From contig CAWFSF010000006.1 of NCBI GenBank assembly GCA_963818475.1, forward strand, positions 768,001-832,000: a stretch of DNA of 64,000 bases, read 5' to 3'. This stretch comes from Nitrospirota bacterium (GTDB lineage: Bacteria > Nitrospirota > UBA9217). The notes below the pieces were generated by a model. That model did not search any database. It was given only the letters and a program-made list of their open reading frames with translations, and was not told the origin of the DNA. A program made the translations under genes and the position numbers. Shown piece by piece: positions 18,313 through 63,097 of the stretch (positions are counted from its first letter, which is position 1; every line of letters begins with the position of its first letter).

Positions 18313-19508
18313 TCAGCGTTTTGAGAATATCGTTGCCAGGGCATCGATCAGCTGATCGATCTCTTCAGTGGACACGATGAGCGGCGGCATGAAGCGCAGT
18401 ACGTTGTCCATGGTGCAGTTGATCAGGAGGCCTTCCTTGAGGCAGGCAGTAACGATATCCTTGCACTCGAAATCGAGCTCCATGCCGATCAGCAGACCCT
18501 TGCCCTCGCACATTCTTTACGAACCCGAATCGTTTTTTCAGGTTTTCCAGGCCCTCAAGGAAGTGCTGACCGTGCTGTTCAACGGCCGGAAGCAGGATGT
18601 TGTCCTCAAGGAGCGCGTCGAGCGAAGCTATCGCTGCTGCACAGGCGAGGGGATTGCCGCCGAAGGTCGAGCCGTGCGATCCCGGCGTGAAGGCCTGGGC
18701 GGCCTTGTCCGTGGCCAGCAGGGCGCCGATGGCCATGCCCGCGCCGAGCCCCTTGGCGAGCGCCGCAACATCGGGCGCGACACCCGTGTGCTCGTAGGCG
18801 AAGAGCTTCCCGGTCCGGCCCATGCCGGTCTGTACTTCATCGAGCATGAGCAGCAGGTTGTGCCGGTCGCAGATATCGCGCAGGGCTTTCAAGATATCCG
18901 GCTGCCGGCACGTTGACGCCGCCCTCACCCTGGATCGGTTCGACCAGGACAGCGCAGGTATGCTCGTTGACCGCCCGCTCGACAGCATCGGCGTCGTTAT
19001 AGGGCACATACCGGAAGCCGTCGACGAGCGGTTCAAAGGTCTTGTGAAATTTTTCCTGGGCCGTTGCGGCCAGTGCTCCCATCGTCCGGCCGTGGAACGA
19101 TCCGCGCATGGTGATGATCTCGAAACGGTTCAGGTGCAGCACCTCACGGCTGTAGCGCCGCGCCAGCTTGATGGCCGCCTCAATCGCTTCCGTTCCCGAA
19201 TTGCAGAAAAAGGCCTTGTCGCCGAAAGAGTTCTGGACGAGCATCTTGGCGAGGTTGATCTGCGGCTCATTATGGTAGTGGTTCGATACATGCATGAGCC
19301 GCTGGGCCTGCTTCTGGAGCGCGACGACGACGCGCGGATGGCAGTGGCCGAGGTTGTTCACGGCCACGCCGGATACGAAATCGAGGTACTCCCTGCCATC
19401 GGAGTCGTAAACCTTCATGCCCCGACCCTTGACGAGCACGAGCGGCTGCCTGCCGTAGGTGTTCATGATGTATTTCTGAGAGTCCGCTATGATGTCGCTC
19501 GTGATCAT
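18313..19508 (-). CDS. argD: Acetylornithine aminotransferase (two frameshifts, near 18900 and 18510)
   Basis: MNTYGR.PL, LGHCHP, FFCNSGTEA, SFHGRT, EPIQGEGG, DEVQTGMGRTG, AKGLG, HGSTFGGNPLA, LRFMPPL. Lies upstream of argF. Confidence 0.93.
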
Positions 19509-19569
19509 GATGGGCAAAAGTATCACAAGAAAGCTTAAAAATCAAATATAAAATGGGTATCTGTTGTTA

Positions 19570-19760
19570 TCAAGAACAGGGGGAAACGCGTGGCCGCAGC
19601 GGAATAGAATCCAGCGGACTCTTCCTCTTTGGATATTTTACGCGAAAATCGAGATAATATCTGAGCCACTTTCGGTAGTGAGGGCGAAGAATGAGGGGAA
19701 TTGCCCTATGTGCCATGACTGCGTCGAAGGGTCTTAAAATTCCGTTCGGGATAGGGAGCA
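19570..19760 (-). pseudogene. Truncated N-terminus of an integron-integrase-like tyrosine recombinase
   Basis: MLPIP..IL..FDAVM..RAIP..LRPHYRKWLRYYLDF..KY resembles the SAM-like N-terminal domain of integron integrases (recognised from memory). No catalytic domain follows. Divergent from a GTTRRRY site. Confidence 0.6.
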
Positions 19761-19854
19761 TAGGACACCAATCGCTGCACATTTTTTGATTCGAATAAGC
19801 CATGTAACCGGATTATTCTTATATAACGTTTTTCTGGAATAGTTAAGTCAAAAT

Positions 19855-19921
19855 TATCGTAAGTCGTTGACTTAACTTAAATTCAATGATAGAGTCCCGT
19901 TCATATAATCACTGGTTAGAT
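19855..19921 (+). mobile_element. Putative integron attI region with GTTRRRY core site
   Basis: AT-rich region upstream of the integrase remnant ending in GTTAGAT (19915-19921), 6 nt before the ATG of the next ORF. This is the typical attI/first-cassette layout. Confidence 0.5.
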
Positions 19922-19927
19922 TCCGCA

Positions 19928-20433
19928 ATGTTCTTATTCCGTTATCTATCACCTGAGTACGCTGACGCGTTCGTCAAAACGGCGAGGTCCTCTTCCTTAC
20001 CTTGTCGTACTTTCGCGACTACGAGGATGATGGCGTCCGAGCCGACGAATACGAAGGAACACTGGTTCATCTACCCAAACAGGGGTTGAAGACTCGCTTT
20101 GCTAAGACCGGCGAGGAAGATCTCGTTCCCTACACGTTCGAATCGTCCGCTCGCGAAGATGAAATATTTGTTTACTGCATGAGCGCAGAGTGTAGTTCGA
20201 TGCTCGCCTCTCGCTTCAAAGCCGAGGCTTGCGTCGAGATTTTCGACCTTCCGAGGTTTTTCTTTCACCTGCGAGCGGCCTTGACAAAATACCCGCAGGT
20301 CCAAGAATCGCAGTTGGTCTACGACACCGTAAAGTACTACGAGGTATACGAACCACCAATTGTCGCGAGCATCAGGATGAGAGGAATATCGCATGCGATA
20401 TGCTGTGGGGCAATTGTACTGAGATGCCGATAA
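19928..20433 (+). CDS. Hypothetical protein, probable first integron cassette (frameshift near 19980, possibly 3'-truncated)
   Basis: MFLFRYLSPEYADAFVK continues by frameshift into LSYFRDYEDDGVRAD.YEG..FVYCMS..ACVEI. No RBS or promoter space before the ATG. Confidence 0.55.
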
Positions 20434-21932
20434 AAATAAAAAAATGGGCCGTTGCGGCAACGCTCGCTTTGTGTGCCGGATGCGCGTCGACTGCGCTTGC
20501 AGCAAACGATACGCCCATGGCGTTCATCGACGCCCAGATCGCAGCGAATGCCGGAAAGAGCGGGGTTTATGTACTCGATACAGGCACGGAGGCGCTTCTG
20601 GCCCGGGCATGGCTGGCAGAAAACGCCAAGGAGTCGATCGAGGTCCAGTACTTTATCTGGAGCACGGACAACATCGGCATCCTGGCGGCGGAGGCGCTGC
20701 TGCGCGCGGCGGAGCGCGGAGTCCGGGTGCGCGTGATCGTGGATGACCTGATGGTCGACGCGCCGGACAAGTGGCTGCTCGCTCTGATCCGGCATCCGAA
20801 TATCGACATCCGCATCTATAACCCACAAGCTTCGGTTGGTGTTCCGGTCCAAAAGCGCCTGTTAAACGTGTTGACCAATTTCCGCGCCGTCAACCAGCGC
20901 ATGCACGACAAGACGCTGGTGGTCGACGGCAAGGTTGCTATTACGGGCGGGCGGAACATGGCTGCTGAGTACTTCGACTACCATCACGAGTACAACTTTC
21001 GCGACCGGGATGCGCTGCTGCTCGGCGACGCGGTCAAAGCGATACAGACGAGCTTCGAAAGCTTCTGGAACAGCGAACTGAGTGTTAAGGTCGAGGAACT
21101 CTACGAAGGGTGGGGCTTGATGCAGAAAAACGTGCGCGTGGACGACAAGGAGATCGAGCGGATATATGGCGAGTTGCACGAGTATGAGAAGTCGCCGGAG
21201 AATTTTGCTCCTGAGGTGCGAGCTGCAATAGCATCTACGCCCGCGGCCTTCGCCCGCCTGGCGCAACAGATGACCTGGAGCAACGTGGAGTTCATCAGCG
21301 ATCGACCCGGCAAGAACGACAATAAAGTTTCCCTTCACGGCGGGGGACAGACCACCTCGGCGCTCGGGCGGTTGATCCAGAATGCACAGCATCGCATCGT
21401 GATCCAATCACCCTATCTGGTACTGTCGAACCAGTCGAAGGATCTGTTTCGCCAGGTCATCGCTCGCGGCGTTACGGTGCGCATCAATACCAACTCCCTC
21501 GCCTCGACCGACAATCTTCAGGCCTTTAGCGGGTATCGAAACCAGCGCAACCGGCTGCTCAAGATGGGGCTGCAGATTTTCGAGTACAAGCCCGCCCCGG
21601 ATGTGCAGCGTAAGCTGATGCAGCGCTCTCCGGGGGACACCGGCAAGGCCCCCGTCTTTTCGCTGCATGCCAAAACCATGGTAATCGATGCAAAAACCGT
21701 CTACATCGGAACGTTCAACTTCGACCCGCGTTCCGAGAACCTGAATACTGAGGTCGGCGTGATTATCCACGACGAGGCGCTGGCGCGCGCGGTGGAGGCC
21801 TCGATCGAAACAGACATGGCGCCGAGCAACAGCTGGGACGCTGACAAGGACGATCCGGATCAGTACGTTTCGTATGCAAAGCGAAGCAAGGTGCTGTTCT
21901 ATCAACTGATGCCCATCAGACCTCTTCTATGA
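20424..21932 (+). CDS. Phospholipase D family protein (ClsC/YmdC-like), secreted or lipoprotein
   Basis: Two HKD motifs (RMHDKTLVVD..GGRN and SLHAKTMVID..GTFNFDPRS..LNTE) and an N-terminal signal with CAGC. Confidence 0.92.
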   Translation: MPIKIKKWAVAATLALCAGCASTALAANDTPMAFIDAQIAANAGKSGVYVLDTGTEALLARAWLAENAKESIEVQYFIWSTDNIGILAAEALLRAAERGVRVRVIVDDLMVDAPDKWLLALIRHPNIDIRIYNPQASVGVPVQKRLLNVLTNFRAVNQRMHDKTLVVDGKVAITGGRNMAAEYFDYHHEYNFRDRDALLLGDAVKAIQTSFESFWNSELSVKVEELYEGWGLMQKNVRVDDKEIERIYGELHEYEKSPENFAPEVRAAIASTPAAFARLAQQMTWSNVEFISDRPGKNDNKVSLHGGGQTTSALGRLIQNAQHRIVIQSPYLVLSNQSKDLFRQVIARGVTVRINTNSLASTDNLQAFSGYRNQRNRLLKMGLQIFEYKPAPDVQRKLMQRSPGDTGKAPVFSLHAKTMVIDAKTVYIGTFNFDPRSENLNTEVGVIIHDEALARAVEASIETDMAPSNSWDADKDDPDQYVSYAKRSKVLFYQLMPIRPLL

Positions 21933-22210
21933 CAGAAGCCGCACGCTATATGCATCCCAATTGGCACGAATTTGCCGCACAAAAAGACCAGTGTACAGGT
22001 TCGCCATTTTCAGCTTCATAATCCCCGTCATTTTTCCTTGCAAGAAATCATTTGCCAGAATTTTTATTGACAAACCTTTGATACTGTTTTATTATCACTT
22101 TTATTCTTTAAAATTAAACGGTTAGATGAATAAATATGTTGAAAATGAAGGATATACGTGGCCCATGCTGGTGCAGGCCGCGACCTAACGTGTAAAGGCG
22201 GATCGAATAA

Positions 22211-23515
22211 GTGGCTAAGAAAGCAATTAACGTCGGCATCATAGGTTTCGGCACCGTGGGAACGGGCACTGCCCGTATCCTGCTTGAGAATGCCGATATT
22301 ATTCAGAGGCGGCTCGGTGCGCCGGTGGTGCTCAAGAAGATCTCTGATCTTGATGTCAAGCGTGATCGCGGAATATCGCTCGGCAGCGTGCAACTGACGA
22401 CCAGTGCTCAGGACGTCCTGACGGATCCGGACATCGATGTCGTTATCGAACTTATCGGCGGGTATAAACCTGCCAAGGAGTTCATCCTGGAAGCGTTCCG
22501 GAACAAGAAACATGTCGTAACGGCGAACAAGGCGCTGCTGGCCGTTCACGGCGAAGAGCTCTATGCTGCTGCTGAAAAAGCGGGCGTGACGCTGGGATAC
22601 GAAGCTTCCGTGGCCGGCGGCATCCCGATCCTTGCGGCCGTCAGGAGCGGGCTCGCGGCAAACAATATTGAATCCATCTACGGGATCGTGAACGGCACCT
22701 GCAATTATATCCTGACGCTCATGACGAACGCAGGCCGGAAGTTCGACGAGGTGCTCAAAGAAGCCCAGGCAATGGGGTATGCCGAGGCTGACCCGACCTT
22801 CGATATCGAGGGCATAGACTCGGCGCATAAGCTCGCCGTTCTCACCATGCTGGCCTACGGCACGCCGGTCAGGTTCGACGACATCTACACCGAGGGAATC
22901 TCGAAGATCACCCCGCTGGACATTGATTTTGCCAAAGACCTGGGCTACAAGATCAAGCTTCTGGCCATCACCAAGAAGGTGAATGGTGAGATCGAGGCGC
23001 GGGTGCATCCCACCATGCTTCCCGAGACCTATCCGATAGCGTCGGTCGACGGCGTTTTTAACGCTCTCGCCGTGGTGGGAGACGCTGTCGGTTCGACCAT
23101 GTTCTACGGCAGGGGAGCAGGAGATATGCCCACGGGCAGCGCGGTCGTGAGCGATGTCATCAGTATCGGCCGCGACATTCTCGCCGGCTCTGTGGGACGG
23201 TCGCCCGTAACGGCATTCCGTGACCGGAAACCGCTCAGAATACGGAAAATGGACGATATCACGTCGTGCTATTATCTTCGCTTCTCGGCACTGGATAAAC
23301 CGGGGGTGCTTTCCCGCATCACGGGCGTACTCGGGAAGAACAACATCAGCATCTCGTCGATGCTTCAGAAGGGCCGCAAGGTGGACGAAGCGGTGCCCAT
23401 CGTCATGATGACCCATGAGGCGGTGGAGCGCGACGTGCGCAAGGCGCTTGACGAGATCAACAAGATGGATTGTGTGTCCGGTTCCACTGTAGTGATCAGG
23501 GTGGAAGAGGGATGA
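22211..23515 (+). CDS. hom: Homoserine dehydrogenase with C-terminal ACT domain
   Basis: GIIGFGTVGTG, HVVTANKA, YEASVAGGIP, GIVNGTCNYIL, GYAEADPTFD, GRGAG..PTGSAV, ACT motif DKPGVLSRI. Confidence 0.97.
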   Translation: MAKKAINVGIIGFGTVGTGTARILLENADIIQRRLGAPVVLKKISDLDVKRDRGISLGSVQLTTSAQDVLTDPDIDVVIELIGGYKPAKEFILEAFRNKKHVVTANKALLAVHGEELYAAAEKAGVTLGYEASVAGGIPILAAVRSGLAANNIESIYGIVNGTCNYILTLMTNAGRKFDEVLKEAQAMGYAEADPTFDIEGIDSAHKLAVLTMLAYGTPVRFDDIYTEGISKITPLDIDFAKDLGYKIKLLAITKKVNGEIEARVHPTMLPETYPIASVDGVFNALAVVGDAVGSTMFYGRGAGDMPTGSAVVSDVISIGRDILAGSVGRSPVTAFRDRKPLRIRKMDDITSCYYLRFSALDKPGVLSRITGVLGKNNISISSMLQKGRKVDEAVPIVMMTHEAVERDVRKALDEINKMDCVSGSTVVIRVEEG

Positions 23516-23526
23516 AGAAAATTAGT

Positions 23527-23630
23527 CAAATTCCCAAATAATAACCAAATACGAAATTCGAATGAGAGAAACGTTTGGGATTTTGAACTTGGAATTTATT
23601 TGCGATTTGGCGATTGTGTTTTGGGATTTT
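23527..23630. repeat. Degenerate heptamer inverted-repeat element (CAAAT/ATTTG family)
   Basis: Left arm CAAATTCCCAAATAATAACCAAATACGAAATT, right arm TTTGGGATTTTGAACTTGGAATTTATTTG..GGGATTT. A similar element is at 36283-36415. Confidence 0.6.
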
Positions 23631-23644
23631 CACCGGAGGTGGTT

Positions 23645-23906
23645 ATGGCTGACGATATCAAAGTTGATAAGACAATCGATCTGAAGGGCCAGGTCTGTCC
23701 CTATACGTTTGTCCGCTCAAAGCTTGGCTATTGAGAAGATGAACCTCGGTGAAGTGCTCGAGGTCATCCTCGACCATAAACCCGCGGTGGATAACGTGCC
23801 CAAGAGCATGGAGAACGAGGGACAGAAAGTTCTGAAAATCGATCAGGTTGGTGAGAAAGAGTGGCATCTCTTTGTCCGGAAGGACAAGGAGAAGGTAAGG
23901 AAGTAA
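23645..23906 (+). CDS. tusA: TusA/SirA family sulfurtransferase (frameshift near 23725)
   Basis: MADDIKVDKTIDLKGQVCPYTFVRSK (CP motif), then AIEKMNLGEVLEVILDH..AVDNVP. GGAGG RBS upstream. Confidence 0.88.
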
Positions 23907-23950
23907 TTTCGGGTTGCGGATTTCGGATTGAAAGATCTGGAATTCGAATT
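23906..23950. repeat. Heptamer tandem repeat arm (TTCGGAT/TGCGGAT family)
   Basis: ATTTCGGGTTGCGGATTTCGGATTG directly after the tusA stop codon. Confidence 0.65.
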
Positions 23951-23963
23951 CAGGTGGAAACCT

Positions 23964-24767
23964 ATGGATTTTACTGAAGATCAAATATTGCGTTACAGCA
24001 GGCACATCCTGCTCCCTGAGGTCGGGGGGGAAGGCCAGGAGAGGATCCTGAACGCCAGAGTGGTGCTGGTGGGCGCCGGCGGGCTCGGCTCTCCGGTGGG
24101 GTACTATCTTGCAGCCGCCGGCGTGGGGACGATCGGGGTCATTGATAACGACCGCGTGGAAATATCGAACCTCCAGCGCCAGATCGCGCACAATACCAGC
24201 AGGCTCGGCGTGTTAAAGGCCGATTCCGCCAAGGAGACCTACGAAACGCTGAACCCTGATGTGAAGGTCGTTACGCATAAAGAACGGCTCACGTCCACGA
24301 ACATCAAGGACATCATCAAGGACTACGACATCGTGGTGGACGGGAGCGACAACTTCCCGACCCGCTATCTGGTGAACGATGCCTGTGTCATGCTCAAAAA
24401 GACGCTCGTGAGCGCCGCTGTTTTCCGCTTCGAGGGTCAGGTGATGACCATTGTACCGGGCGAAGGCCCCTGCTACCGGTGCCTCTTCGAGATACCTCCG
24501 CCGCCGGGGATGGTCCCGTCCTGCCAGGAGGCGGGGATACTGGGCGTCGTGACGGGCGTCATCGGAACGATACAGGCGACCGAGGTGATCAAGATGATCC
24601 TCGGGATCGGCCAGCCGCTCAAAGGGTCGCTGCTGCTCTGGAACGCCCTCGATATGAGCTTCCGCAAGGTCAAAGTGCCGCATAACCGCGAGTGCCCGGT
24701 CTGCGGCGAGCACCCGACCATTACCGAGTTGATCGACTACGAGCAGTTCTGCTCCATGAGCCACTGA
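23964..24767 (+). CDS. moeB: E1-like adenylyltransferase, MoeB/ThiF/HesA family (no rhodanese domain)
   Basis: RYSRHILL, VGAGGLGSP, SNLQRQI, DGSDNFPTRYLVNDAC, PCYRCLF, SCQEAGILG, CPVCG. Confidence 0.93.
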   Translation: MDFTEDQILRYSRHILLPEVGGEGQERILNARVVLVGAGGLGSPVGYYLAAAGVGTIGVIDNDRVEISNLQRQIAHNTSRLGVLKADSAKETYETLNPDVKVVTHKERLTSTNIKDIIKDYDIVVDGSDNFPTRYLVNDACVMLKKTLVSAAVFRFEGQVMTIVPGEGPCYRCLFEIPPPPGMVPSCQEAGILGVVTGVIGTIQATEVIKMILGIGQPLKGSLLLWNALDMSFRKVKVPHNRECPVCGEHPTITELIDYEQFCSMSH

Positions 24768-24768
24768 T

Positions 24769-24802
24769 ATATTGCGGAATGCGGATTTCGGATTGCGGAA
24801 TT
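24769..24802. repeat. Heptamer tandem repeat arm (TGCGGAA/TTCGGAT family)
   Basis: ATTGCGGAATGCGGATTTCGGATTGCGGAATT directly after the moeB stop codon. Confidence 0.7.
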
Positions 24803-24829
24803 AGTACCGCGAACGACGCGGCAAACAAT

Positions 24830-25270
24830 ATGCTGGTGATTACACAGGCAGACATGCAACGCATTTTTGAACATTGCGGACGCGAGTTTCCCAACGAAGC
24901 CTGCGGTATCCTGGGTGGGCATGATAGTACCGTTGAAACAGTATTTCCCATGACCAATGCGCGTCCGAGCCCGCATTACTATGAAATGGACCCGGAGGAG
25001 CAATTCCAGGTGATGAAGGATATGCGGCAGGCAGGGCTTGAGATGGTCGGCATCTACCACTCTCACACGGGTGGTCCTGCATACCCCTCGAGCGTTGACG
25101 TTGAACGGGCATACTGGCCCGGGACGGCATTGCCCAATTACCCTGAAGCCCATTACCTGATCGTTACGCTGCTCGATCGAAAAAAACCAACAGCACGGGT
25201 CTTCACGATAGCGGAAAAACAGATCAAGGAAGCGGAGCTGCTCATTGCTTCGGAGGAGAACAGCCGATGA
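24830..25270 (+). CDS. JAB/MPN+ (Mov34, M67) metallopeptidase, Mec/HcyD-like
   Basis: PNEACGILGG and IYHSHT..PAYPSSVD, the complete JAMM motif E..HxH-x7-S-xx-D. Confidence 0.93.
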   Translation: MLVITQADMQRIFEHCGREFPNEACGILGGHDSTVETVFPMTNARPSPHYYEMDPEEQFQVMKDMRQAGLEMVGIYHSHTGGPAYPSSVDVERAYWPGTALPNYPEAHYLIVTLLDRKKPTARVFTIAEKQIKEAELLIASEENSR

Positions 25271-26499
25271 CGTATGTCAAGAGCCTGCGATGCGTCGAAT
25301 GCGGCAGGGAATACAAGATCGACCCCATCTATGTCTGCGAGTTCTGCTTCGGGCCGCTTGAAGTAACCTACGATTACGAGCGGATCAAGCGCGATATGAC
25401 GCGCCAGAAGGTCGAGTCCCGGCCGCACAATATGTGGCGGTACCGCGAGCTGCTGCCGATCGACGGCGATCCCGTCACGGGGTTCGACACCGGCTACACC
25501 CCGTTGATGAAGGCTCGGAATCTTGCACGCGCGTGGGGTGTCCGGGAGATTTACCTGAAGGACGATTCCGTGAACCATCCGACCCTGTCCTTCAAGGACC
25601 GTGTCGTGGCCGTGGCCGTCACTAAGGCAAAGGAGTTCGGATTCGATACGGTGGCCTGCGCGTCCACGGGCAACCTGGCGAATTCGGTGGCTGCTCAGTC
25701 CGCGCGGGCGGGCATGAAGCGCTTTATCTTCACCCCTGCGGACCTCGAGCTGTCGAAGACCATCAACTCGATGATCTATCATCCGAACCTGGTGACGGTG
25801 GACGGCAACTACGACGAGGTGAACCGGCTCTGCTCCGAGGTGGCGAACAAATACCGCTGGGCTTTTGTGAACATCAATATCCGGCCGTTCTACGGCGAAG
25901 GGTCCAAATCCCTGGGATTCGAGGTTGCCGAACAGCTGGGGTGGAAGACGCCGCACAACATCGTGGTGCCCAATGCCAGCGGTTCGCTCATGACCAAAAT
26001 CTGGAAGTCCTTCAGGGAGCTTGAAAAGCTCGGCCTCATCCCGCCCGTCAGGACCAAAGTGTTCGCGGCGCAGGCCACGGGCTGCAATCCCATCACCACG
26101 GCGATCAAGGAAGGCAGCGATGTTATCAGGCCGGTGAAGCCCAGGACCATCGCGAAATCCCTGGCCATCGGGAATCCCGCAGACGGGTATTATGCAGCCA
26201 AGGTCACGCAGGATACGGGCGGGTATGGTGAAGATTCTACGGACCAGGAGATCGTGGACGCCATGAAGCTCCTTGCCGAGACCGAAGGGGTCTTTGCCGA
26301 GACTGCCGGCGGCGTGACGGTTGCTGCCGCTAAAAAACTTGTCGAATCCGGCAGAATTTCAAAAGACGAATCGCTCGTGATCTGCATCACCGGCAACGGC
26401 CTCAAGACCACGGAAGCGGTCGTTGACCATCTCCTGAGGCCGACGCCCATCAGGCCGAACATCGAAGCGTTCGAGGAGCTGCTGAAGAAGCTGCAATAG
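25267..26499 (+). CDS. thrC: Threonine synthase family PLP enzyme (possibly a homocysteine-forming paralog)
   Basis: N-terminal Zn ribbon CVECG..CEFCFGPL, MWRYRELLP, NHPTLSFKDR (PLP Lys), ASTGNLA, IAKSLAIGNPADG, ITGNGLKT. Confidence 0.9.
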   Translation: MTYVKSLRCVECGREYKIDPIYVCEFCFGPLEVTYDYERIKRDMTRQKVESRPHNMWRYRELLPIDGDPVTGFDTGYTPLMKARNLARAWGVREIYLKDDSVNHPTLSFKDRVVAVAVTKAKEFGFDTVACASTGNLANSVAAQSARAGMKRFIFTPADLELSKTINSMIYHPNLVTVDGNYDEVNRLCSEVANKYRWAFVNINIRPFYGEGSKSLGFEVAEQLGWKTPHNIVVPNASGSLMTKIWKSFRELEKLGLIPPVRTKVFAAQATGCNPITTAIKEGSDVIRPVKPRTIAKSLAIGNPADGYYAAKVTQDTGGYGEDSTDQEIVDAMKLLAETEGVFAETAGGVTVAAAKKLVESGRISKDESLVICITGNGLKTTEAVVDHLLRPTPIRPNIEAFEELLKKLQ

Positions 26500-26508
26500 T
26501 AACTAGGT

Positions 26509-26599
26509 AGGTGAGAAGGCTGAAGGTGGAAGGATTTTCGGGAATGGCTTGATACGAGCAGTGATATACTTCAGCCGTCAGCCTTCAGTCTGAGCACCT
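26509..26599. repeat. Degenerate heptamer inverted-repeat element (GGCTGAA/TTCAGCC family)
   Basis: Left arm AGGTGAGAAGGCTGAAGGTGGAAGG, right arm CTTCAGCCGTCAGCCTTCAGTCTGAGCACCT. A related, more degenerate element is at 39122-39210. Confidence 0.6.
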
Positions 26600-26630
26600 G
26601 CAGTAATGTTTTTTCCAGGAGGATTGCATT

Positions 26631-26909
26631 ATGGCCATCAAGGTACTAATTCCCACACCGCTGCAAAAACTGACGAACGGTCAGGCCGAAGTAGAATGTA
26701 GCGCAACGAACGTTCTGGAGCTGGTTGAGGCCCTGGAAAAGGACTACCCGGGGATGAAGGAACGGCTTTCGGACGGCGGCAAGATCCGCAGGTTCATCAA
26801 TATCTATGTGAACGAAGAGGACATCCGCTTTGTGAACAAGGAAGAGACCGCGATCAAGGATGGGGACAATGTATCGATCGTCCCTGCCATCGCAGGTGGG
26901 CGCGGGTAG
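26631..26909 (+). CDS. Ubiquitin-like sulfur carrier, MoaD/ThiS/CysO family, with GG masked by a C-terminal RG
   Basis: [40 protein letters not shown]-stop. GGAGG RBS upstream. Confidence 0.93.
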
Positions 26910-27019
26910 GTCTCGGGCGTCCGGAAGGTACGCGGGTTGTCGGTCGAAGGGAAATCATAACACCGCAGGCACGGTTTGTATCTTGGTGATCGCTGCGAAG
27001 AGCAAGCCAGGGAGGCACA

Positions 27020-27259
27020 ATGGCGACAAAGAGGGTTAAATTGACGTTTCCGCAGGACTTGATCAAGGAACCCGTTATTTTCAATATGGCGAAGAAGTAT
27101 GACGTGATGCCGAATATCCGCCGGGCCAAGGTCACCGAGAGTGTGGGTGAAGTCGTCCTCGAACTGGAAGGGGCGGATAAAAACCTGGAAGCAGGGATCG
27201 CCTACCTGAAGGAGCGGGGAGTGAAGGTGGAAGCCGTGGAAGGCGATATCGTCGGCTGA
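27020..27259 (+). CDS. Stand-alone NIL domain protein
   Basis: VKLTFP..IKEPVI..Y.V.PNIRRA.V....GEVVLELEG...GV.VE, an ACT-like NIL fold. GGAGG RBS upstream. Confidence 0.82.
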   Translation: MATKRVKLTFPQDLIKEPVIFNMAKKYDVMPNIRRAKVTESVGEVVLELEGADKNLEAGIAYLKERGVKVEAVEGDIVG

Positions 27260-27370
27260 TCATTGGAACAACGGCGGTGCAGCAAAGCAGTGTCCGCGAG
27301 AGTGTCGGGACCGTGGGTCACGGCAGGCGACACGGTGGCATGAGCAGGAACGGTACGGGTGAACCGAATT

Positions 27371-28600
27371 ATGAAATATATCATTCTTCTTGGCGATGGA
27401 ATGGCGGACAGGCCGCATGCAGACCTCGGGGGCAAGACGTGCCTGCAGGCTGCCAGGACGCCGAACATGGACCAGCTTGCCTCGCGGGGGCAGGTCGGCA
27501 TGGTACGGACCGTGCCGGAAGGTTTTCCGCCGGGCAGCGATGTGGCCAATCTTACGGTGATGGGCTATGATCCGCGAAAGTATTACTCAGGCCGGTCGCC
27601 GCTCGAGGCGGCGAGCATCGGTGTAGAACTGGGCCCCGATGACGTTGCTTTTCGGTGCAACCTTGTCACCCTTCGCCTTACGGGCGGCAAGTCTGCCGTC
27701 TCCGGCAAGGGCAGGCGCGCCATCATGGAGGATTTCAGCGCCGGTCATATTACCACGCAGGAGGCGCTCCTTCTGATCGAGGAAATCGACAGCAAGCTGG
27801 GCAGCGACCATCTTCGGTTCTATCCCGGCGTGAGCTACCGCCATCTGATGGTATGGAAGGGCGGCAAGGACAAAATCGAGTGCACGCCGCCCCATGACAT
27901 CCAGGACAAGGATATCCTTGACTACCTCCCGCGCGGGGAGGGTGATGATGTCATCAACGCGCTGATGGAGGCATCAACGGAGCTGCTGCTCGCGCATCCC
28001 GTGAACAAGGCCCGACAGGAGAACGGCAAGCGCATGGCGAACAGCATCTGGCTTTGGGGCCAGGGCAAGCGTCCCAGCATGCCGCCTTTCAGGGAAAAGT
28101 TTGGCATCGAAGGTTCGATGATATCCGCCGTGGACCTGACCAAAGGCATCGGTATTTACGCCGGCTTCGAGGTTATCACTGTGCCCGGCGCGACCGGATG
28201 GCTCGATACCAACTATGTGGGCAAGGCGGAGCACGCGCTCTTTTCCCTCAAGACGAAGGATATTGTGTATGTGCATGTAGAGGCTCCGGACGAGGCCGGC
28301 CACACCGGCGATCTTAAGGGCAAGCTCAAGGCCATCGAGGATTTTGACGAGTTCATCGTCGGGAACATCATGCACGGCATGAAACAGTTCGATGAGTACC
28401 GCATCCTGGTGCTTCCCGACCATCCTACACCGATCGAGATCAGGACGCACTCGAGCGATCCCGTGCCGTTCATCATCTACGACAACAGGAATGAACGTCA
28501 GGGCGGGCCGGTATCCTATGACGAGCAGATCGCGAACCGGAAGGATGCTTTGTTCGTGCAGGAAGGTCACATGCTGATGGAGCTTTTTCTGAAAAAATAA
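27371..28600 (+). CDS. apgM: Cofactor-independent phosphoglycerate mutase-like protein (ApgM family; proposed homoserine kinase subfamily)
   Basis: GDGMAD, TPNMD, PPGSDVAN, GRSPLEAA, FRCNLVT, TPPHD, WLWGQG, HVEAPDEAGH, PDHPTP. Located between thrC and lysC. Confidence 0.88.
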   Translation: MKYIILLGDGMADRPHADLGGKTCLQAARTPNMDQLASRGQVGMVRTVPEGFPPGSDVANLTVMGYDPRKYYSGRSPLEAASIGVELGPDDVAFRCNLVTLRLTGGKSAVSGKGRRAIMEDFSAGHITTQEALLLIEEIDSKLGSDHLRFYPGVSYRHLMVWKGGKDKIECTPPHDIQDKDILDYLPRGEGDDVINALMEASTELLLAHPVNKARQENGKRMANSIWLWGQGKRPSMPPFREKFGIEGSMISAVDLTKGIGIYAGFEVITVPGATGWLDTNYVGKAEHALFSLKTKDIVYVHVEAPDEAGHTGDLKGKLKAIEDFDEFIVGNIMHGMKQFDEYRILVLPDHPTPIEIRTHSSDPVPFIIYDNRNERQGGPVSYDEQIANRKDALFVQEGHMLMELFLKK

Positions 28601-28636
28601 TCAAATCCGGCTTGTCCGGGATAGGGGAGGAAGTCG

Positions 28637-29857
28637 GTGCTGATAGTACAGAAATACGGAGGAACATCTGTCGGGAATCCCGAGCGTATCAAGAATGTGG
28701 CGCGGCGCGTGTGCCGCACCAAAGAAGAAGGCCATGATGTAGTCGTTGTGCTCTCTGCCATGAGCGGAGAGACGGACAAGCTTATCAACCTTGCAGCTCA
28801 GGTGAGCGACAACCCCGACCCTCGCGAAATGGACATGCTCGTATCCACGGGTGAACGGGTGACCATCGCGCTTTTGGCCATGGCCATCCAGTCGCTGGGC
28901 CATAAGGCGCAGTCGTTTACGGGCAGGCAGGCGGGGATCATCTCAGACAGCGTGCATACGAAGGCGCGGATCGAAAAGATCACGGGCGAGCGGCTGAAGC
29001 AGGCGCTCAAAGCGGGGAAGATCGCCGTAGTGGCGGGTTTCCAGGGTATCACGGAAGGGTCGGACGATGTGACGACGCTGGGGCGCGGCGGCTCCGACCT
29101 TTCGGCAGTTGCGGTCGCTGCAGCGCTCAAAGCCGACCTCTGCGATATTTATACGGACGTGGACGGCGTCTACACTACGGACCCGAACATGGTGCCGCAG
29201 GCCAGAAAACTGGACAAGATCTCCTATGACGAGATGCTTGAACTGGCGAGCCTGGGGGCCAAGGTGCTCCAGACCCGCTCTGTGGAGTTCGCGAAAAAAT
29301 ACAATGTACCGGTACGGGTGCTCTCGAGCTTCAACGATAACCCGGGGACCCTGGTGACCAAGGAGGATTCAGATATGGAAAAAGTAGTGGTGTCCGGTGT
29401 AGCCTACGACAAGAACCAGGTGAAGGTGACGATCCAGGGGGTGCCGGACAAGCCGGGAGTTGCCGCGAAGATCTTCAATACCATATCCGACAATTCGGTC
29501 GTCGTGGATATGATCATTCAGAATATCGGCGAAGGCGGGCTTACGGACATGTCCTTTACCGTGCCCAAGACCGATGCTAAGAAAATCAACGAGGTCATGA
29601 AAAAGGTCGTGGCCGAGATCGGTGCAAAGAACGTGAGCATCAAGGAGGACGTTTCCAAGATATCGATCGTAGGGGTGGGCATGCGTTCTCACTCGGGCGT
29701 TGCGGCAAAGATGTTCTCCGCCATGGCCAAGGAGGGGATCAACATCATGATGATCAGCACGTCGGAGATCAAGATCTCCTGCGTGATCGACGCCAAGTAC
29801 ACGGAGCTCGCGGTCAGGGTGCTTCACGAAACGTTCGAGATGGACAAGGCGGCGTAG
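28637..29857 (+). CDS. lysC: Aspartate kinase
   Basis: [40 protein letters not shown], and two ACT domains ending STSEIKIS. Confidence 0.97.
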
Positions 29858-29858
29858 C

Positions 29859-29947
29859 AATTTCGGATTGCGGAATGCGGATTGCGGAATAAACACCAGG
29901 CGGAGCTAGGGTTTCCAATCCGAAATCCGCAATCCGAGATCCGCAAT
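29859..29947. repeat. Complete heptamer inverted-repeat element (both arms)
   Basis: AATTTCGGATTGCGGAATGCGGATTGCGGAAT, a ~26-nt spacer, then AATCCGAAATCCGCAATCCGAGATCCGCAAT. The arms are approximately complementary. Confidence 0.85.
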
Positions 29948-29988
29948 AAGGACACCTGAAATACCGAATGATAAAAACAGAAAGCGTT

Positions 29989-31583
29989 ATGAAAAAATCA
30001 AAAGTACAGCTCTACGACACCACGCTCCGTGACGGGGCGCAGGCAGAGGACGTGAACTTCTCGGTCGAGGACATGGTCCGTGTGGCCAGGAAACTCGACC
30101 AGTTCGGGATGCAGTACATCGAGGGCGGCTGGCCCGGCTCCAATCCCCGCGACGTGAAATTCTTCAAGGAAATGCGGGGGGTCAAGCTGAAGAAGGCCCG
30201 GCTCGTCGCATTCGGCGCCACCCGCCGGGCAAAGCTCAGGGCTTCCGAAGATCCCAGCCTCAGGGCGCTCATTGCATCAGGCGTGTCCGTGGCGACCATC
30301 TTCGGCAAATCCTGGGACCTGCATGTGCTGAAGGCGCTCAGGACGACCTTGCAGGAAAACCTCGCCATGATCAGGGATTCCGTTGCTTTTCTCAAAAAGC
30401 ACATGGACGAGGTCTTCTACGATGCCGAGCATTTCTTTGACGGGTACAAGGCGAATCCGGATTATGCGATCCAGACGCTGCTGACTGCCGAAGCCGCAGG
30501 CGCCGACTGCCTGGTGTTGTGCGATACCAATGGCGGCACTTTGCCGCACGAGGTGGAGCGGATCATCAGCGAGGTCAAGGCGCAGATCAAGGCCCCCTTC
30601 GGCATCCATGCGCATAATGACGCCGAGGTAGCCGTGGCGAACTCGCTTGTTGCCATAAGACTGGGCGGCGTGCAGGTCCACGGCACGATCAATGGGTACG
30701 GCGAGCGCTGCGGCAACGCGAATCTCTGCACCATCATCCCGACCCTCAAGCTCAAGATGGGCGTCGACTGTATCTCCGATGCAGGACTGCAGGGCCTGCG
30801 CGAGGTATCGCGGTATGTCGACGAGCTGGCGAATCTGCCGCACCGCAAGCGCCAGCCTTATATCGGCGACAGCGCTTTTGCCCATAAGGCCGGCGTCCAT
30901 GTCGATGCGGTGGCCAAGAACCCGCTTACCTATGAGCATGTGATCCCGGAGCAGGTGGGAAACAAACGGCGCATCCTGGTCTCTGATATGGCGGGTAAAA
31001 GCAATATTCTTCAGAAAGCGGCCGAGCTCAATATTGCACTTTCCAAGGATAGTCCTGAACTGTCCGAGATCCTCAGGAAGGTGAAGGAACTGGAAAATGA
31101 AGGGTATGAGTTCGAGGGAGCCGAAGGTTCACTGGAGCTCCTTATGCTGCGCGCAGGTCGCGGCTACGAGTCGGTTTTCAATATCTTCGACCGGATCGAC
31201 TACCGGGTGTTCACTGAAAAAAGAAAGATCGACCCCCATCCTCTGAGCGAAGCAACGGTGACCGTCGAGGTCGGCGGTAAGACCGAACATACCGCCGGGT
31301 GGGGCTACGGGACCGGTGAATGCGCTCGATAAGGCCCTTCGCAAGGTGCTGCCCAGATATTTCCCGGGCAAAGGGCTGGAAGATGTACGCCTGCTGGACT
31401 ATAAAGTGCGCGTGCTCACGGCCGCAGAGGGAACGGCAGCCCGCGTGCGGGTGCTGATCGAGTCCGGGGACGGCAGAAACAAATGGGGCACGGTCGGCGT
31501 GTCCGAAAACGTGATCGAGGCGAGCTGGCAGGCGCTGGTGGACAGTATCGAGTACAAGTTGCTGCGGGCGAAGAAAAAAATAA
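29989..31583 (+). CDS. cimA: Citramalate synthase (frameshift near 31305; true stop probably 31581-31583)
   Basis: [58 protein letters not shown]-terminal [36 protein letters not shown]. Confidence 0.93.
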
Positions 31584-31622
31584 GCCGAAGGCGGATCGCG
31601 GTTTATGGAATAGAGGCGCGGA

Positions 31623-32085
31623 ATGATCGAAGAAGAAGGCATTGTCGCAGAGGTCCAGGGGAACATCGCAAAGGTGGAGATACTGAAAAAAAGCGCCTGC
31701 GAGAAGTGTGCCGCTTCAGGGACCTGTCATCCCGGCGACCAGGAGCTCATGGAGGCCGATAATCCGCTCGGGGCGGTCAAGGGGCAGAAGGTAAAGGTCG
31801 TGGTCGCACCGCAGCTCTATCTGAAAGCGTCTCTCATCCTGTACGGCATACCTATGGTTGCGTATGGTCGCCGGCGCCATCCTGGGGAAAAATGCAGCTA
31901 TTGCCTACGCAGGCGAACCGAATTCCGACCTCTGGGCGTTCATCGCCGGCATGACCTGCTTGGTGATATCTTTTTATTTCATAAGGCTGTATAATAATAA
32001 AGTAGAGAAGACCCGTGAGTACAAACCGGTCATTGTAGAGATCCTCTCCCGGCCTGAAGACGGCAAGGCGGTCCCCACACGATGA
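31623..32085 (+). CDS. RseC/MucC family membrane protein (frameshift near 31860)
   Basis: [14 protein letters not shown]...[19 protein letters not shown], then two TM segments. Confidence 0.82.
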
Positions 32086-32348
32086 GAATGATCAAAAAAC
32101 CAGAGGAGGCGAAGCGGCTCGCACGGACGATCGTCTCCGATATCGTTCTGTACAACCAGCAGAAGGTCAAGGAAGGCATCGAAAAGGACAGCCTTTTTGA
32201 CGTGCTTACCGATGAGCTTGCTGAAGGGAAAAAATATTACGAAAGCATGGTGGAAGAGGAAATCCGTCAATCCACCAACTTTTTCAATGAAGCGCTGGTC
32301 GACGTGCTGTTGAAGCAAAATGCGAAAATAAAATCAGAGATCTGGTAG
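32082..32348 (+). CDS. Small hypothetical helical protein
   Basis: Intact 88-aa ORF (AKRLARTIVSDIVLYN...FFNEALVDVLL) translationally coupled to the upstream gene. Confidence 0.7.
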   Translation: MRMIKKPEEAKRLARTIVSDIVLYNQQKVKEGIEKDSLFDVLTDELAEGKKYYESMVEEEIRQSTNFFNEALVDVLLKQNAKIKSEIW

Positions 32349-32387
32349 CTCATAAGATAAGCGAAATCTCTCATCAAGGGGTGTCTT

Positions 32388-62601: not shown

Positions 62602-62606
62602 GGGGG

Positions 62607-63038: not shown

Positions 63039-63097
63039 GTAAGTGGCCTCTTTCTCTGTCTGCTTGCGCTTCGGTGCGCGGGAGTCGCGTGGGCTGA

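What the first reader, a model, noticed from the sequence alone, without database searches (positions are those of the whole stretch)
22211..29857. Ubiquitin-like sulfur relay inside the homoserine/threonine operon: candidate thiocarboxylate-dependent homocysteine pathway
Seen: co-oriented hom - tusA - E1(moeB) - JAB - thrC-like - Ubl - NIL - apgM-like - lysC, with the JAB and thrC genes overlapping. Established: E1 plus a sulfur donor converts a Ubl C-terminal Gly to a thiocarboxylate. In Mycobacterium CysM/CysO/Mec, a PLP enzyme condenses it with O-phosphoserine and a JAB protease releases cysteine. The Wolinella HcyS/HcyD/HcyF proteins make homocysteine through a protein thiocarboxylate. 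Inference: LysC, Hom and the ApgM-like protein supply O-phosphohomoserine, the ThrC-family enzyme does gamma-replacement with Ubl-COSH, and JAB releases homocysteine. From memory, a related ThrC-annotated enzyme and carrier were reported in Streptomyces; this needs checking. A single operon that also has TusA, NIL and a non-ThrB kinase would be a fuller version in an anaerobe.
Basis: partly seen in the sequence, partly recalled or inferred. Interest (0 to 1): 0.82.

Follow-up and report, generated by a model that had tools for sequence, protein, structure and literature searches.

The report
Carrier-protein homocysteine operon with NIL
This Nitrospirota operon most likely makes homocysteine, the methionine precursor, from O-phosphohomoserine with sulfur carried on a small ubiquitin-like protein, a route published in 2024, and it includes a small methionine-sensor-like NIL protein that I did not find described for that route.

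Summary
Its reading is supported. The ThrC-like enzyme is not the threonine synthase. The genome has a separate plant-type ThrC. In relatives a canonical thrC sits in the same operon.

The enzyme falls in one well-supported clade with an actinomycete gene that follows a SAM riboswitch and precedes a Gly-Gly carrier. That matches what citing papers say of the MetM/MetO route of Streptomyces (Hasebe 2024; not held, known only through them). GapMind 2026 already lists a step of this route for a Nitrospirota.

In 151 Nitrospirota genomes, 117 carry the enzyme. Of these, 79 show no match to three families marking other routes (DUF39, MetX, Cys/Met PLP family).

Undescribed as far as I could search:
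- a NIL protein shaped like the methionine-binding domain of MetN;
- carriers with variable tails, or a whole NIL domain, after the Gly-Gly, which implies JAMM processing;
- TusA beside an E1 with no rhodanese domain.

This scan has noted the same operon before on other DNA. The genome also has a possible second route (CGS-family gene), and I found no methionine synthase.

The parts
22067..22095 (+). promoter-like site TTGACA-17-TATTAT (11 of 12 matches), about 115 nt before hom
   Evidence: No + strand terminator-like site lies between hom and the end of lysC. This is a consensus match only.
22211..23515 (+). hom, homoserine dehydrogenase with a C-terminal ACT domain
   Evidence: PF00742, PF03447, PF01842; NF004976 562.7 bits.
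23645..23906 (+). tusA-like sulfur-transfer protein, split by a 1-nt insertion in this assembly (N-terminal part from 23645, remainder 23709-23906)
   Evidence: PF01206; sequence; intact ~90-aa orthologues with GQ[VI]CPYTF in 16 of 16 loci checked; extra G relative to L017.
23928..24767 (+). E1-type adenylyltransferase (ThiF/MoeB family), adenylation domain only, no rhodanese domain
   Evidence: PF00899 286 bits. It matches MoeZ model NF005902 over positions 14-275 of 392 and PRK08762 over positions 116-385 of 387. The protein is 279 aa.
24830..25270 (+). JAMM/JAB metalloprotease (Mec-like); the ORF is open from 24692 and the stop overlaps the next gene by 4 nt
   Evidence: PF14464 87 bits; desampylase NF041370 78.3 bits, below its cut-off. 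The sequence HSHTGGPAYPSSVD fits HxHx7Sx2D (motif definition recalled); closest solved chains are 2kks and the JAMM1 entries 5ld9/5lda.
25267..26499 (+). MetM-like ThrC-family PLP enzyme (candidate thiocarboxylate-dependent homocysteine synthase), 410 aa, with an N-terminal Cys-rich ribbon
26631..26909 (+). MetO-like ubiquitin-fold sulfur carrier (ThiS/MoaD family), ending AIAGG + RG tail
   Evidence: 45% identical to the carrier behind the SAM-riboswitch gene of Nonomuraea; only 4 of 79 relatives end at GG.
27020..27259 (+). stand-alone NIL-domain protein, 79 aa
   Evidence: PF09383; 79% mean column identity over 44 sequences; model pLDDT 89.7; best PDB match is the MetN C2 domain, TM 0.83-0.86.
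27359..28600 (+). HomK, the phosphoglycerate-mutase-like alternative to homoserine kinase
   Evidence: TIGR02535 570.3 bits against a cut-off of 446.3; a GapMind 2026 passage reports that BT2402 (the TIGR02535 family) rescues an E. coli strain in minimal medium and replaces ThrB.
28637..29857 (+). lysC, aspartate kinase with ACT domains
   Evidence: NF005155 649.5 bits.

Best explanation
The operon feeds aspartate into O-phosphohomoserine and converts that into homocysteine with protein-borne sulfur. It is a Nitrospirota form of the MetM/MetO route.

Steps, all inferred from homology and gene context:
1. LysC, Hom and HomK make O-phosphohomoserine. Asd is encoded elsewhere.
2. The JAMM protease trims the two-residue tail of the carrier and exposes Gly-Gly.
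3. The E1 adenylates the terminal Gly. A sulfur donor, most likely TusA persulfide since the E1 has no rhodanese domain, turns it into a thiocarboxylate.
4. The ThrC-like PLP enzyme replaces the phosphate of O-phosphohomoserine with the carrier thiocarboxylate.
5. After acyl shift, the JAMM protease frees homocysteine and regenerates the carrier.
6. The NIL protein, a structural twin of the methionine-binding regulatory domain of the MetN transporter, most likely senses methionine or homocysteine and tunes the system. This last step is the weakest; I put it at about one in three.

Threonine is made from the same O-phosphohomoserine pool by a separate, plant-type ThrC elsewhere in the genome.
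For: Separate threonine synthase.
- The genome has its own plant-type ThrC. Its N-terminal part scores 370.9 bits to Arabidopsis TS 1e5x.
- It is only 24-29% identical to the window enzyme.
- In 7 of 7 relatives inspected, a canonical thrC lies just behind NIL in the same operon. It scores 448-517 bits to solved bacterial ThrCs, against 166-191 bits for the window enzyme.

Anchor to methionine.
- In Nonomuraea gerenzanensis the 53%-identical orthologue follows a SAM riboswitch (RF00162, 68.7 bits). It precedes a 91-aa ThiS-family protein that ends in GG and is 45% identical to the window carrier.
- The canonical ThrC of Nonomuraea is elsewhere in its genome.
- In the tree both genes share a 47-row clade (SH-aLRT 95). 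The 10 canonical ThrCs (100) and 5 plant-type ThrCs (99) are separate.
- 12 of 37 diverse metagenome loci of the clade have a SAM riboswitch upstream.

Linkage.
- Ubl is adjacent in 79 of 80 and NIL in 78 of 80 related genome loci.
- 12 of 12 loci from six other Nitrospirota families show E1-thrCL-Ubl-NIL-E1.
- Ubl is adjacent in 57 of 62 metagenome loci.

Phyletic pattern in 151 Nitrospirota genomes.
- 117 have the enzyme.
- 79 of these have no hit to DUF39, MetX or the Cys/Met PLP family.
- 33 of the 34 genomes without the enzyme have one of those alternatives.

Sequence signature. 82 clade members have L137, R206 and Y209 where both true-ThrC lineages have T, N and R.

Other points.
- The carrier needs a protease: only 4 of 79 carriers end at GG.
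- O-phosphohomoserine supply: HomK is in the operon and no ThrB was found.
- The other carriers in the genome are accounted for: a MoaD-MoaE fusion and a ThiS next to ThiG.

Literature, passages only.
Against: - No activity was measured.
- The Hasebe 2024 paper is not held and I could not compare directly with S. albulus MetM.
- The enzyme passes NCBI's threonine synthase equivalog cut-off.
- PMC12172450 (passages) reports threonine synthase and deaminase activity for a MetM-like Microcystis enzyme. Its authors concluded that it did not appear to act fully as MetM in cells.
- No riboswitch was found in the window (E-value scan of 19500-32500).
- The genome holds a CGS-family gene beside the plant-type ThrC. 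This pairing is conserved in 5 of 5 family members examined. In this genome the operon may therefore not be the only route.
- In 23 sampled members of the window's own family the enzyme gave no strong match.
- No methionine synthase was found: TIGR02082 gave partial hits only; TIGR01371, PF02574 and PF01717 gave none. The genome is 91% complete.
- tusA is frameshifted in the assembly.
- MetA was searched only in the window's own genome, not across the phylum.
- The roles of the signature residues as phosphate ligands are recalled, not checked.
Confidence: 0.85

Rival explanations
1. The operon is an auxiliary or conditional route. The main homocysteine supply in this genome would be the CGS-family enzyme encoded next to the plant-type ThrC, using O-phosphohomoserine as in plants. 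The carrier route would serve particular sulfur sources or low sulfide.
For: - A single Cys/Met PLP family gene lies directly after ThrC2.
- The pair is adjacent in 5 of 5 family genomes examined (with coordinates).
- 35 of 36 sampled family members have such a gene.
- Only 13 of those 36 (14 of 37 with the window's own genome) have the ThrC-like enzyme.
Against: - The substrate and direction of the CGS-family enzyme are unknown. Its best models include gamma-lyases and gamma-synthases, all below their cut-offs for the two pieces.
- Transsulfuration would also need a beta-lyase, and no second Cys/Met-family gene was found.
- 79 of 151 genomes have the carrier route with no hit to DUF39, MetX or the Cys/Met PLP family.
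- This rival concerns the importance of the operon, not what it does.
Confidence: 0.25
2. The ThrC-like enzyme is simply a second threonine synthase. The Ubl, E1, JAB and TusA genes serve molybdenum cofactor, thiamine or tRNA thiolation and only happen to sit in the operon.
For: - TIGR00260 scores 272.7 bits, above its cut-off.
- The E1 resembles MoeB and SAMP-activating E1 models.
- The genome has only two ThiF-family genes, so this E1 may also serve other carriers.
Against: - Separate true ThrCs exist.
- The carrier is next to the enzyme in 79 of 80 genome loci and 57 of 62 metagenome loci.
- SAM riboswitches stand in front of clade members.
- Moco and thiamine have their own carriers in this genome.
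- The clade differs from both true-ThrC lineages at three otherwise fixed positions.
Confidence: 0.04
3. The module makes cysteine or another thio-amino acid, for example from O-phosphoserine, in the manner of CysM/CysO/Mec.
For: - The set of carrier, E1 and JAMM is the same as in the mycobacterial cysteine route (recalled knowledge).
- In six other Nitrospirota families cysK sits directly upstream of the module.
Against: - The PLP enzyme is of the ThrC family, not the CysM/CysK family.
- It is embedded between hom and homK.
- Clade members are under SAM riboswitches, which respond to the methionine product.
Confidence: 0.04
4. NIL is not a sensor. It is a structural adaptor or pro-domain of the carrier. 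It might dock the carrier on the enzyme or E1, or block the Gly-Gly until JAMM cleavage.
For: - 17 of the 23 longer NIL homologues found carry a ThiS domain. In the two fused forms read, and in all 18 rows of alignment A3, the order is carrier, GG, linker, NIL.
- Two further in-frame fusions occur among the 80 genome loci.
- In several loci the Ubl stop abuts or overlaps the NIL start.
Against: - A model of the fusion gives two well-folded domains with no fixed packing: pTM 0.52, and the GG linker has pLDDT below 50.
- NIL is absent from 20 of 57 metagenome loci that have the carrier, and from Nonomuraea. It is therefore dispensable for the chemistry.
- Its fold matches the methionine-binding C2 domain of MetN.
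Confidence: 0.3

Closest known systems
MetM/MetO/Mec/MoeZ route of Streptomyces albulus (Hasebe et al. 2024, Appl Environ Microbiol 90:e0124724). Seen only as cited in GapMind 2026 Table 2 and in passages of PMC12172450.
   Same: - A ThrC-annotated PLP enzyme sits next to a Gly-Gly sulfur carrier.
- O-phosphohomoserine is the substrate, a JAMM hydrolase releases the product, and an E1 loads the sulfur.
- The window enzyme shares a clade with a SAM-riboswitch-controlled actinomycete orthologue at 53% identity.
   Different: - All parts lie in one operon together with hom, homK and lysC.
- The E1 has no rhodanese domain and TusA sits beside it.
- The carrier has a tail after GG.
- A NIL protein is conserved with the module.
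- HomK replaces ThrB.
- There is no SAM riboswitch.
HcyS/HcyD/HcyF/MetY of Wolinella succinogenes (Krishnamoorthy and Begley 2011; recalled, not read here)
   Same: Homocysteine is made through a protein thiocarboxylate. The carrier is made with extra C-terminal residue(s) that a JAMM-type protease must remove.
   Different: The condensing enzyme there is a MetY-type O-acetylhomoserine sulfhydrylase (Cys/Met PLP family). Here it is a ThrC-family enzyme, and no homoserine acyltransferase was found.
CysM/CysO/Mec of Mycobacterium tuberculosis (recalled)
   Same: The logic of carrier thiocarboxylate, PLP enzyme acting on an O-phospho amino acid, and JAMM release.
   Different: That system makes cysteine from O-phosphoserine with a CysM-family enzyme.
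DUF39 (HcyBio) plus NIL/ferredoxin route (methanogens and Desulfovibrio; PMC5764234, passages)
   Same: A NIL domain is tied to homocysteine synthesis.
   Different: No DUF39 was found in this genome. The NIL here has no ferredoxin domain. Homoserine is not an intermediate in that route. In the phylum, DUF39 (8 genomes) and the ThrC-like enzyme never co-occurred in the sample.
C2 (NIL) domain of the methionine importer ATPase MetN (PDB 3dhw, 3tui, 3dhx)
   Same: The same fold: TM 0.83-0.86, rmsd about 1 A, 27% identity. A tandem NIL-NIL relative exists (P0288).
   Different: Here it is free-standing, or joined to the carrier, rather than fused to an ABC ATPase. Ligand binding is untested.

Membership tests
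MetM/MetO homocysteine route | A ThrC-family PLP enzyme that is distinct from the organism's threonine synthase | tested here: met
   A plant-type ThrC lies on contig C5. A canonical thrC lies beside the module in 7 of 7 relatives inspected. The clades are separate in the tree.
MetM/MetO homocysteine route | An adjacent ThiS/MoaD-fold carrier with a Gly-Gly end | tested here: met
   PF02597 65.2 bits. It is 45% identical to the carrier of the riboswitch-controlled Nonomuraea locus. GG is followed by an RG tail, and tails occur in 75 of 79 relatives.
MetM/MetO homocysteine route | Orthology to the characterised S. albulus MetM (UniProt A0A059WBP2, as named in GapMind 2026) | not testable with these tools
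As a proxy, the window enzyme shares a clade (SH-aLRT 95) with a SAM-riboswitch-controlled, carrier-linked actinomycete gene.
MetM/MetO homocysteine route | Sulfur-loading E1 of the MoeZ type (adenylation plus rhodanese domains) | tested here: not met
   The adenylation domain is present, but the 279-aa protein covers only positions 14-275 of the 392-position MoeZ model. TusA is encoded 21 nt upstream instead.
MetM/MetO homocysteine route | A JAMM hydrolase (Mec) for release of the product | tested here: met
   PF14464 87 bits. The HxHx7Sx2D motif is readable in the translation (motif definition recalled). Activity is untested.
MetM/MetO homocysteine route | Methionine-responsive control (SAM riboswitch in front of metM, per a passage of PMC12172450) | tested here: not met
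   No Rfam match at E up to 1 in 19500-32500 apart from a chance miRNA hit. The riboswitch is present in Nonomuraea and in 12 of 37 clade loci.
MetM/MetO homocysteine route | Formation of homocysteine from O-phosphohomoserine and carrier thiocarboxylate | not testable with these tools
   This needs enzyme assays.
Threonine synthase (TIGR00260) | Score above the curated equivalog cut-off | tested here: met
   272.7 bits against 167.1. The model does not separate the paralogue.
Threonine synthase (TIGR00260) | Residues fixed in both canonical and plant-type ThrC (T88, N157 and R160 in T. thermophilus numbering) | tested here: not met
   The window enzyme has L137, R206 and Y209. Across 82 clade members against 10 + 5 true ThrCs, Y versus R is 100% against 100%. 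The functional role of these residues is recalled.
HomK (TIGR02535, alternative to homoserine kinase) | Score above cut-off, and gene context with hom and thrC | tested here: met
   570.3 bits against 446.3. It lies next to lysC and hom, no ThrB was found, and it is present in 69 of 80 related loci.
DUF39 / NIL-ferredoxin route | A DUF39 (PF01837) protein and a NIL protein fused to a ferredoxin domain | tested here: not met
   No PF01837 match in the genome. The NIL protein is 79 aa with no second domain.
NIL domain (PF09383), MetN C2 type | Pfam match and fold | tested here: met
   68.8 bits. Model pLDDT 89.7. Top PDB matches are MetN C2 domains. Methionine binding is not testable here.

The most novel reading that the evidence does not exclude
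The sulfur carrier is made as a precursor, with a variable tail or a whole NIL domain after its Gly-Gly. A JAMM protease must cut it, as happens with eukaryotic ubiquitin precursors. The released NIL protein is a methionine or homocysteine sensor that gives the pathway protein-level feedback control.

NIL would then partly take the place of the SAM riboswitch. Riboswitches were found in 9 of 16 loci without NIL but in only 3 of 21 loci with NIL.
Probability: 0.3. Interest if true: 0.7.

Novelty: new variant of a known kind. Interest (0 to 1): 0.45.

Why it matters
Databases call this enzyme threonine synthase, so automated reconstructions leave methionine synthesis as a gap across Nitrospirota. 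That phylum includes sulfate reducers and sulfur disproportionators, and presumably nitrite oxidisers too (the sampled families are coded, not named).

In my sample, 79 of 151 genomes had the ThrC-like enzyme and no hit to DUF39, MetX or the Cys/Met PLP family.

The conserved extras suggest how sulfur enters the route and how it is controlled. These extras are NIL, TusA, and carriers that need proteolytic maturation. None of this has been examined in the papers I could search. Each point is directly testable with five or six small recombinant proteins.

Tried and rejected
Complex prediction.
- The job was ThrC-like alignment A1 plus NIL alignment A2.
- It never started in 18 attempts:
  - queue full;
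  - held back without being sent on;
  - machine error.
- Nothing can be said about binding either way.

Names for distant relatives.
- A cluster look-up of 10 representatives gave no organism names. I anchored the clade through a PLSDB record of Nonomuraea instead.
I found its canonical ThrC by tblastn.

Literature.
- The Hasebe paper is not held.
- The readable GapMind 2026 supplements had no occurrence of Dissulfurispira, MetM, Mec or NIL. Its S1 Text is a PDF I could not read and may discuss this pathway in Nitrospirota.
- The roles of T88 and R160 in ThrC could not be confirmed from held papers.

Readings rejected.
- The ThrC-like gene is not a cysteate synthase. The genome's real one (TIGR03844, 459.9 bits) is elsewhere.
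- The frameshifts in tusA, ThrC2 and the CGS-like gene are probably not pseudogenisation. Each is a 1-nt insertion relative to a close relative (tusA in a GG run, CGS in a CCC run), and the orthologues are intact.

Methionine synthase. Four family searches in the genome gave no full MetH or MetE.

Full report
**Observation.** The nine co-oriented genes are there (ORFs; Pfam; NCBIfam):
- hom 22211-23515
- a TusA-family gene ending at 23906
- a ThiF/MoeB-type E1, 23928-24767
- a JAB/JAMM protease, ORF 24692-25270, likely start 24830
- a 410-aa ThrC-family PLP enzyme, 25267-26499
- a 92-aa ThiS/MoaD-fold protein, 26631-26909, ending AIAGG-RG
- a 79-aa NIL-only protein, 27020-27259
- a phosphoglycerate-mutase-like protein, 27359-28600, that passes the TIGR02535 'proposed homoserine kinase' cut-off (570.3 against 446.3 bits)
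- lysC 28637-29857

The JAB stop and the thrC-like start overlap by 4 nt. A near-consensus promoter-like site lies at 22067-22095. No + strand terminator-like site follows until after lysC.

One correction concerns tusA. In this assembly it is split by a 1-nt insertion. The first 27 codons, with the catalytic Cys, start at 23645 in another frame. The gene is whole in 16 of 16 relatives checked, and the extra base sits in a GG run. Four other genes are also split: ThrC2 and the CGS-like gene by 1-nt insertions, and cimA and a second E1 into two frames. Orthologues of ThrC2 are intact in 5 of 5 family genomes. I read these as assembly errors.

**Organism and conservation.**
- The best protein matches are Nitrospirota / Thermodesulfovibrionia MAGs.
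- Across 80 related genome loci, tblastn with the window proteins found thrC-like 80, Ubl 79, NIL 78, homK 69, lysC 56, E1 46, JAB 44, hom 41 and tusA 36. Several misses are contig ends. The core order thrC-like, Ubl, NIL is constant.
- In 12 of 12 loci from six other Nitrospirota families the order is E1, thrC-like, Ubl, NIL, E1. JAB was detected in 8 of the 12 and there were no tusA, hom or homK hits. In the one locus I scanned, the gene upstream is cysK.

**The ThrC-like enzyme is not the threonine synthase.** The genome has three ThrC-family genes.
- The window gene.
- A cysteate synthase (TIGR03844, 459.9 bits) followed by a fused sulfopyruvate decarboxylase.
- A plant-type ThrC on contig C5. 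Its first 271 residues score 370.9 bits to Arabidopsis threonine synthase 1e5x.

The window enzyme is 24-29% identical to that plant-type ThrC. It scores only 166-191 bits to solved bacterial ThrCs.

In 7 of 7 relatives inspected, a 355-368-aa ORF lies between NIL and homK. The one I tested scores 448-517 bits to the same solved ThrCs and 324.5 bits to TIGR00260. In most relatives, then, a true thrC and the ThrC-like gene sit side by side at the O-phosphohomoserine branch point.

**Anchor to methionine.**
- A tblastn of PLSDB found a 53.4%-identical gene in Nonomuraea gerenzanensis.
- That gene is preceded by a SAM riboswitch (RF00162, 68.7 bits).
- It is followed by a 91-aa ThiS-family protein that ends exactly at GG and is 45% identical to the window Ubl. 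No NIL is present there.
- The canonical ThrC of Nonomuraea is 64% identical to the Nitrospirota canonical ThrC and lies elsewhere.
- This fits what passages of PMC12172450 say of metM in S. albulus: a homocysteine synthase acting on O-phosphohomoserine, next to metO, behind a SAM riboswitch.

I built a tree of 103 rows (quick search, LG+G4, SH-aLRT). Of the 150 best representatives, I kept the 75 that are 385-470 aa long. The results:
- The 10 canonical ThrCs form one clade (support 100).
- The 5 plant-type ThrCs form another (99).
- The window enzyme and the Nonomuraea gene fall together inside a 47-row clade (95).
- A Haloarcula plasmid thrC and the cysteate synthase fall outside that clade.

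**Sequence signature.** I compared 82 clade members with 10 canonical and 5 plant-type ThrCs.
- The clade has L137, R206 and Y209 where both true-ThrC groups have T, N and R. For Y against R the split is 100% against 100%.
- In T. thermophilus numbering these are T88, N157 and R160 (alignment).
- I recall these as ligands of the substrate phosphate, but I could not confirm that from held papers.

**Phyletic pattern.** The same sample of 151 Nitrospirota genomes (at least 85% complete) was searched four times and cross-tabulated.
- 117 have the ThrC-like enzyme (best E below 1e-100; one of these is a fragment).
- 79 of the 117 have no hit to DUF39, MetX, or the Cys/Met PLP family at E up to 1e-40.
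- Of the 34 genomes without the enzyme, 8 have DUF39, 4 have MetX plus the Cys/Met family, 21 have the Cys/Met family alone, and 1 has none.
- MetA was not searched across the phylum.
- Related genomes are not independent, so I make no statistical claim.

**The window's own genome.**
- No MetX, DUF39, MetA or ThrB was found. The genome is 91% complete with 6% contamination.
- There is one Cys/Met-family gene, directly after the plant-type ThrC.
- That pairing is adjacent in 5 of 5 family genomes examined (with coordinates).
- 35 of 36 sampled family members have such a gene, but only 13 of 36 (14 of 37 with the window's own genome) have the ThrC-like enzyme.
- A plant-like route from O-phosphohomoserine may therefore run in parallel here.

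**Carrier maturation.**
- Of 79 carrier genes, only 4 end at the Gly-Gly. The others carry non-conserved tails of one to more than eight residues.
- Two of the 80 loci have in-frame carrier-NIL fusions (L061, L083).
- 17 of the 23 longer homologues of NIL that a protein search found carry a ThiS domain.
- Their order is carrier, invariant PAIAGG, a linker that is 2-12 residues in 17 of the 18 aligned fusions (about 40 in L083), then NIL.
- The Gly-Gly is thus internal and must be exposed by cleavage. This gives the JAMM protease a maturation role besides product release.
- A model of the fusion has two confident domains (pLDDT 86.6), low pTM (0.52) and a disordered GG linker. It shows no fixed carrier-NIL packing.

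**NIL.**
- It is highly constrained: 79% mean column identity over 44 sequences.
- It folds with pLDDT 89.7.
- Its best PDB matches are the C2 domains of MetN in the methionine importer: TM 0.83-0.86, rmsd about 1 A, 27% identity.
- A tandem NIL-NIL relative exists.

A metagenome scan used 17 diverse clade representatives as query and gave 80 loci.
- 62 loci had at least 900 nt downstream of the enzyme gene. Of these, 57 have the carrier, 39 have NIL and 37 have both.
- Among the 37 with both, the order is enzyme-carrier-NIL in 26, enzyme-NIL-carrier in 7, one shared open frame in 2, and NIL upstream in 2.
- NIL is therefore frequent but dispensable.

I scanned 37 of the 80 loci for SAM riboswitches, choosing those with upstream flank.
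- A riboswitch stands upstream in 12: 3 of 21 with NIL and 9 of 16 without.
- Fisher's exact test gives p = 0.012. The loci are not independent.
- Earlier notes of this scan list riboswitch-plus-NIL operons in other phyla, so the two features are not exclusive.

**Sulfur entry.**
- The E1 is a bare adenylation domain, unlike MoeZ.
- TusA is encoded 21 nt upstream here and appears in 36 of the 80 related loci; E1 was detected in 46.
- In other families a second E1 takes that place and no TusA was detected.
- That TusA persulfide is the donor is inference.
- The genome's other carriers are a MoaD-MoaE fusion and a ThiS next to ThiG.

**Literature.**
- GapMind 2026 (PMC13759103; passages) lists MetO, Mec, MoeZ and MetM as experimentally supported steps from Hasebe 2024.
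- It includes HomK, stating that BT2402 rescued an E. coli strain in minimal medium.
- It lists a predicted Mec in Dissulfurispira thermophila, a Nitrospirota. The route is therefore known and already predicted in this phylum.
- I found no paper that holds 'NIL domain', 'sulfur carrier' and 'homocysteine' together.
- A search for MetM, 'homocysteine synthase' and Nitrospir* returned two papers that hold all three terms; neither was shown to treat the route in Nitrospirota beyond the Mec entry in GapMind 2026.
- The readable GapMind supplements hold none of the terms Dissulfurispira, MetM, Mec or NIL.
- Hasebe 2024 and the GapMind S1 Text could not be read and may bear on these points.

**Earlier notes of this scan.** They describe the same operon in other Nitrospirota genomes, and MetM/NIL/MetO operons in other phyla. 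My analysis was made before I read them and agrees with them. The lead that NIL is sometimes fused to the carrier came from those notes, and I checked it myself.

**Open points.**
- No methionine synthase was recognised in this genome. MetH gave partial matches only. There was no PF02574, TIGR01371 or PF01717 match.
- PF02574 was found in only 5 of 41 family genomes.
- The complex prediction for NIL could not be run.

**Verdict.** This is a real and well-conserved operon. It is a member of the MetM/MetO kind of homocysteine synthesis (confidence 0.85). Three variant features are worth a bench test: NIL, TusA and precursor carriers.

Noticed in passing
own genome G000:C5:245126-247663 (locus L016 7127-9676): A plant-type threonine synthase (370.9 bits to Arabidopsis TS over 250 residues) is directly followed by the genome's only Cys/Met PLP family (CGS-like) gene. 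The pairing is conserved in 5 of 5 family genomes examined. It may be a plant-like O-phosphohomoserine branch point in a bacterium. Both genes carry 1-nt frameshifts in this assembly.
   Followed up: partly
own genome G000:C2:424269-425489 and downstream (locus L004 1378-2637 and 272-1405, - strand): A cysteate synthase (TIGR03844, 459.9 bits) lies next to a fused sulfopyruvate decarboxylase alpha+beta (TIGR03845/TIGR03846). These are genes of the coenzyme M / sulfonate type, here in a Nitrospirota genome.
   Followed up: partly
whole genome G000: No methionine synthase was recognised. MetH (TIGR02082) gave only B12- and pterin-domain pieces. There was no PF02574, TIGR01371 or PF01717 match. 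PF02574 was found in only 5 of 41 genomes of the family, some of which are rated 100% complete.
   Followed up: partly
window 29968-31762: The citramalate synthase gene cimA follows lysC (TIGR00977 630.5 bits, profile positions 1-436 of 526). Its C-terminal LeuA_dimer part lies in another frame (31316-31762). This is probably another assembly frameshift.
   Followed up: partly
L110 5148-10171 and 11 further loci (L111-L121): In six other Nitrospirota families the module reads (cysK)-E1-thrC-like-Ubl-NIL-E1-JAB. It has two E1 genes and no tusA, hom or homK. The upstream gene was confirmed as cysK in the one locus scanned (L110) and gave weak PLP-enzyme hits in the others.
   Followed up: partly
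metagenome loci L122-L201: A SAM riboswitch upstream of the module is more frequent where NIL is absent (9 of 16) than where it is present (3 of 21). The sample is small and the loci are not independent.
   Followed up: partly
window 62001-64000: G+C content drops to 0.371 against 0.51-0.61 in the rest of the window. I did not look at this.
   Followed up: no
own genome G000:C6:74469-75273: The genome's second ThiF-family E1 is also split into two frames. It lies after a radical-SAM gene, a few kb before amtB/glnB-like ORFs. I read this only from ORF translations.
   Followed up: no
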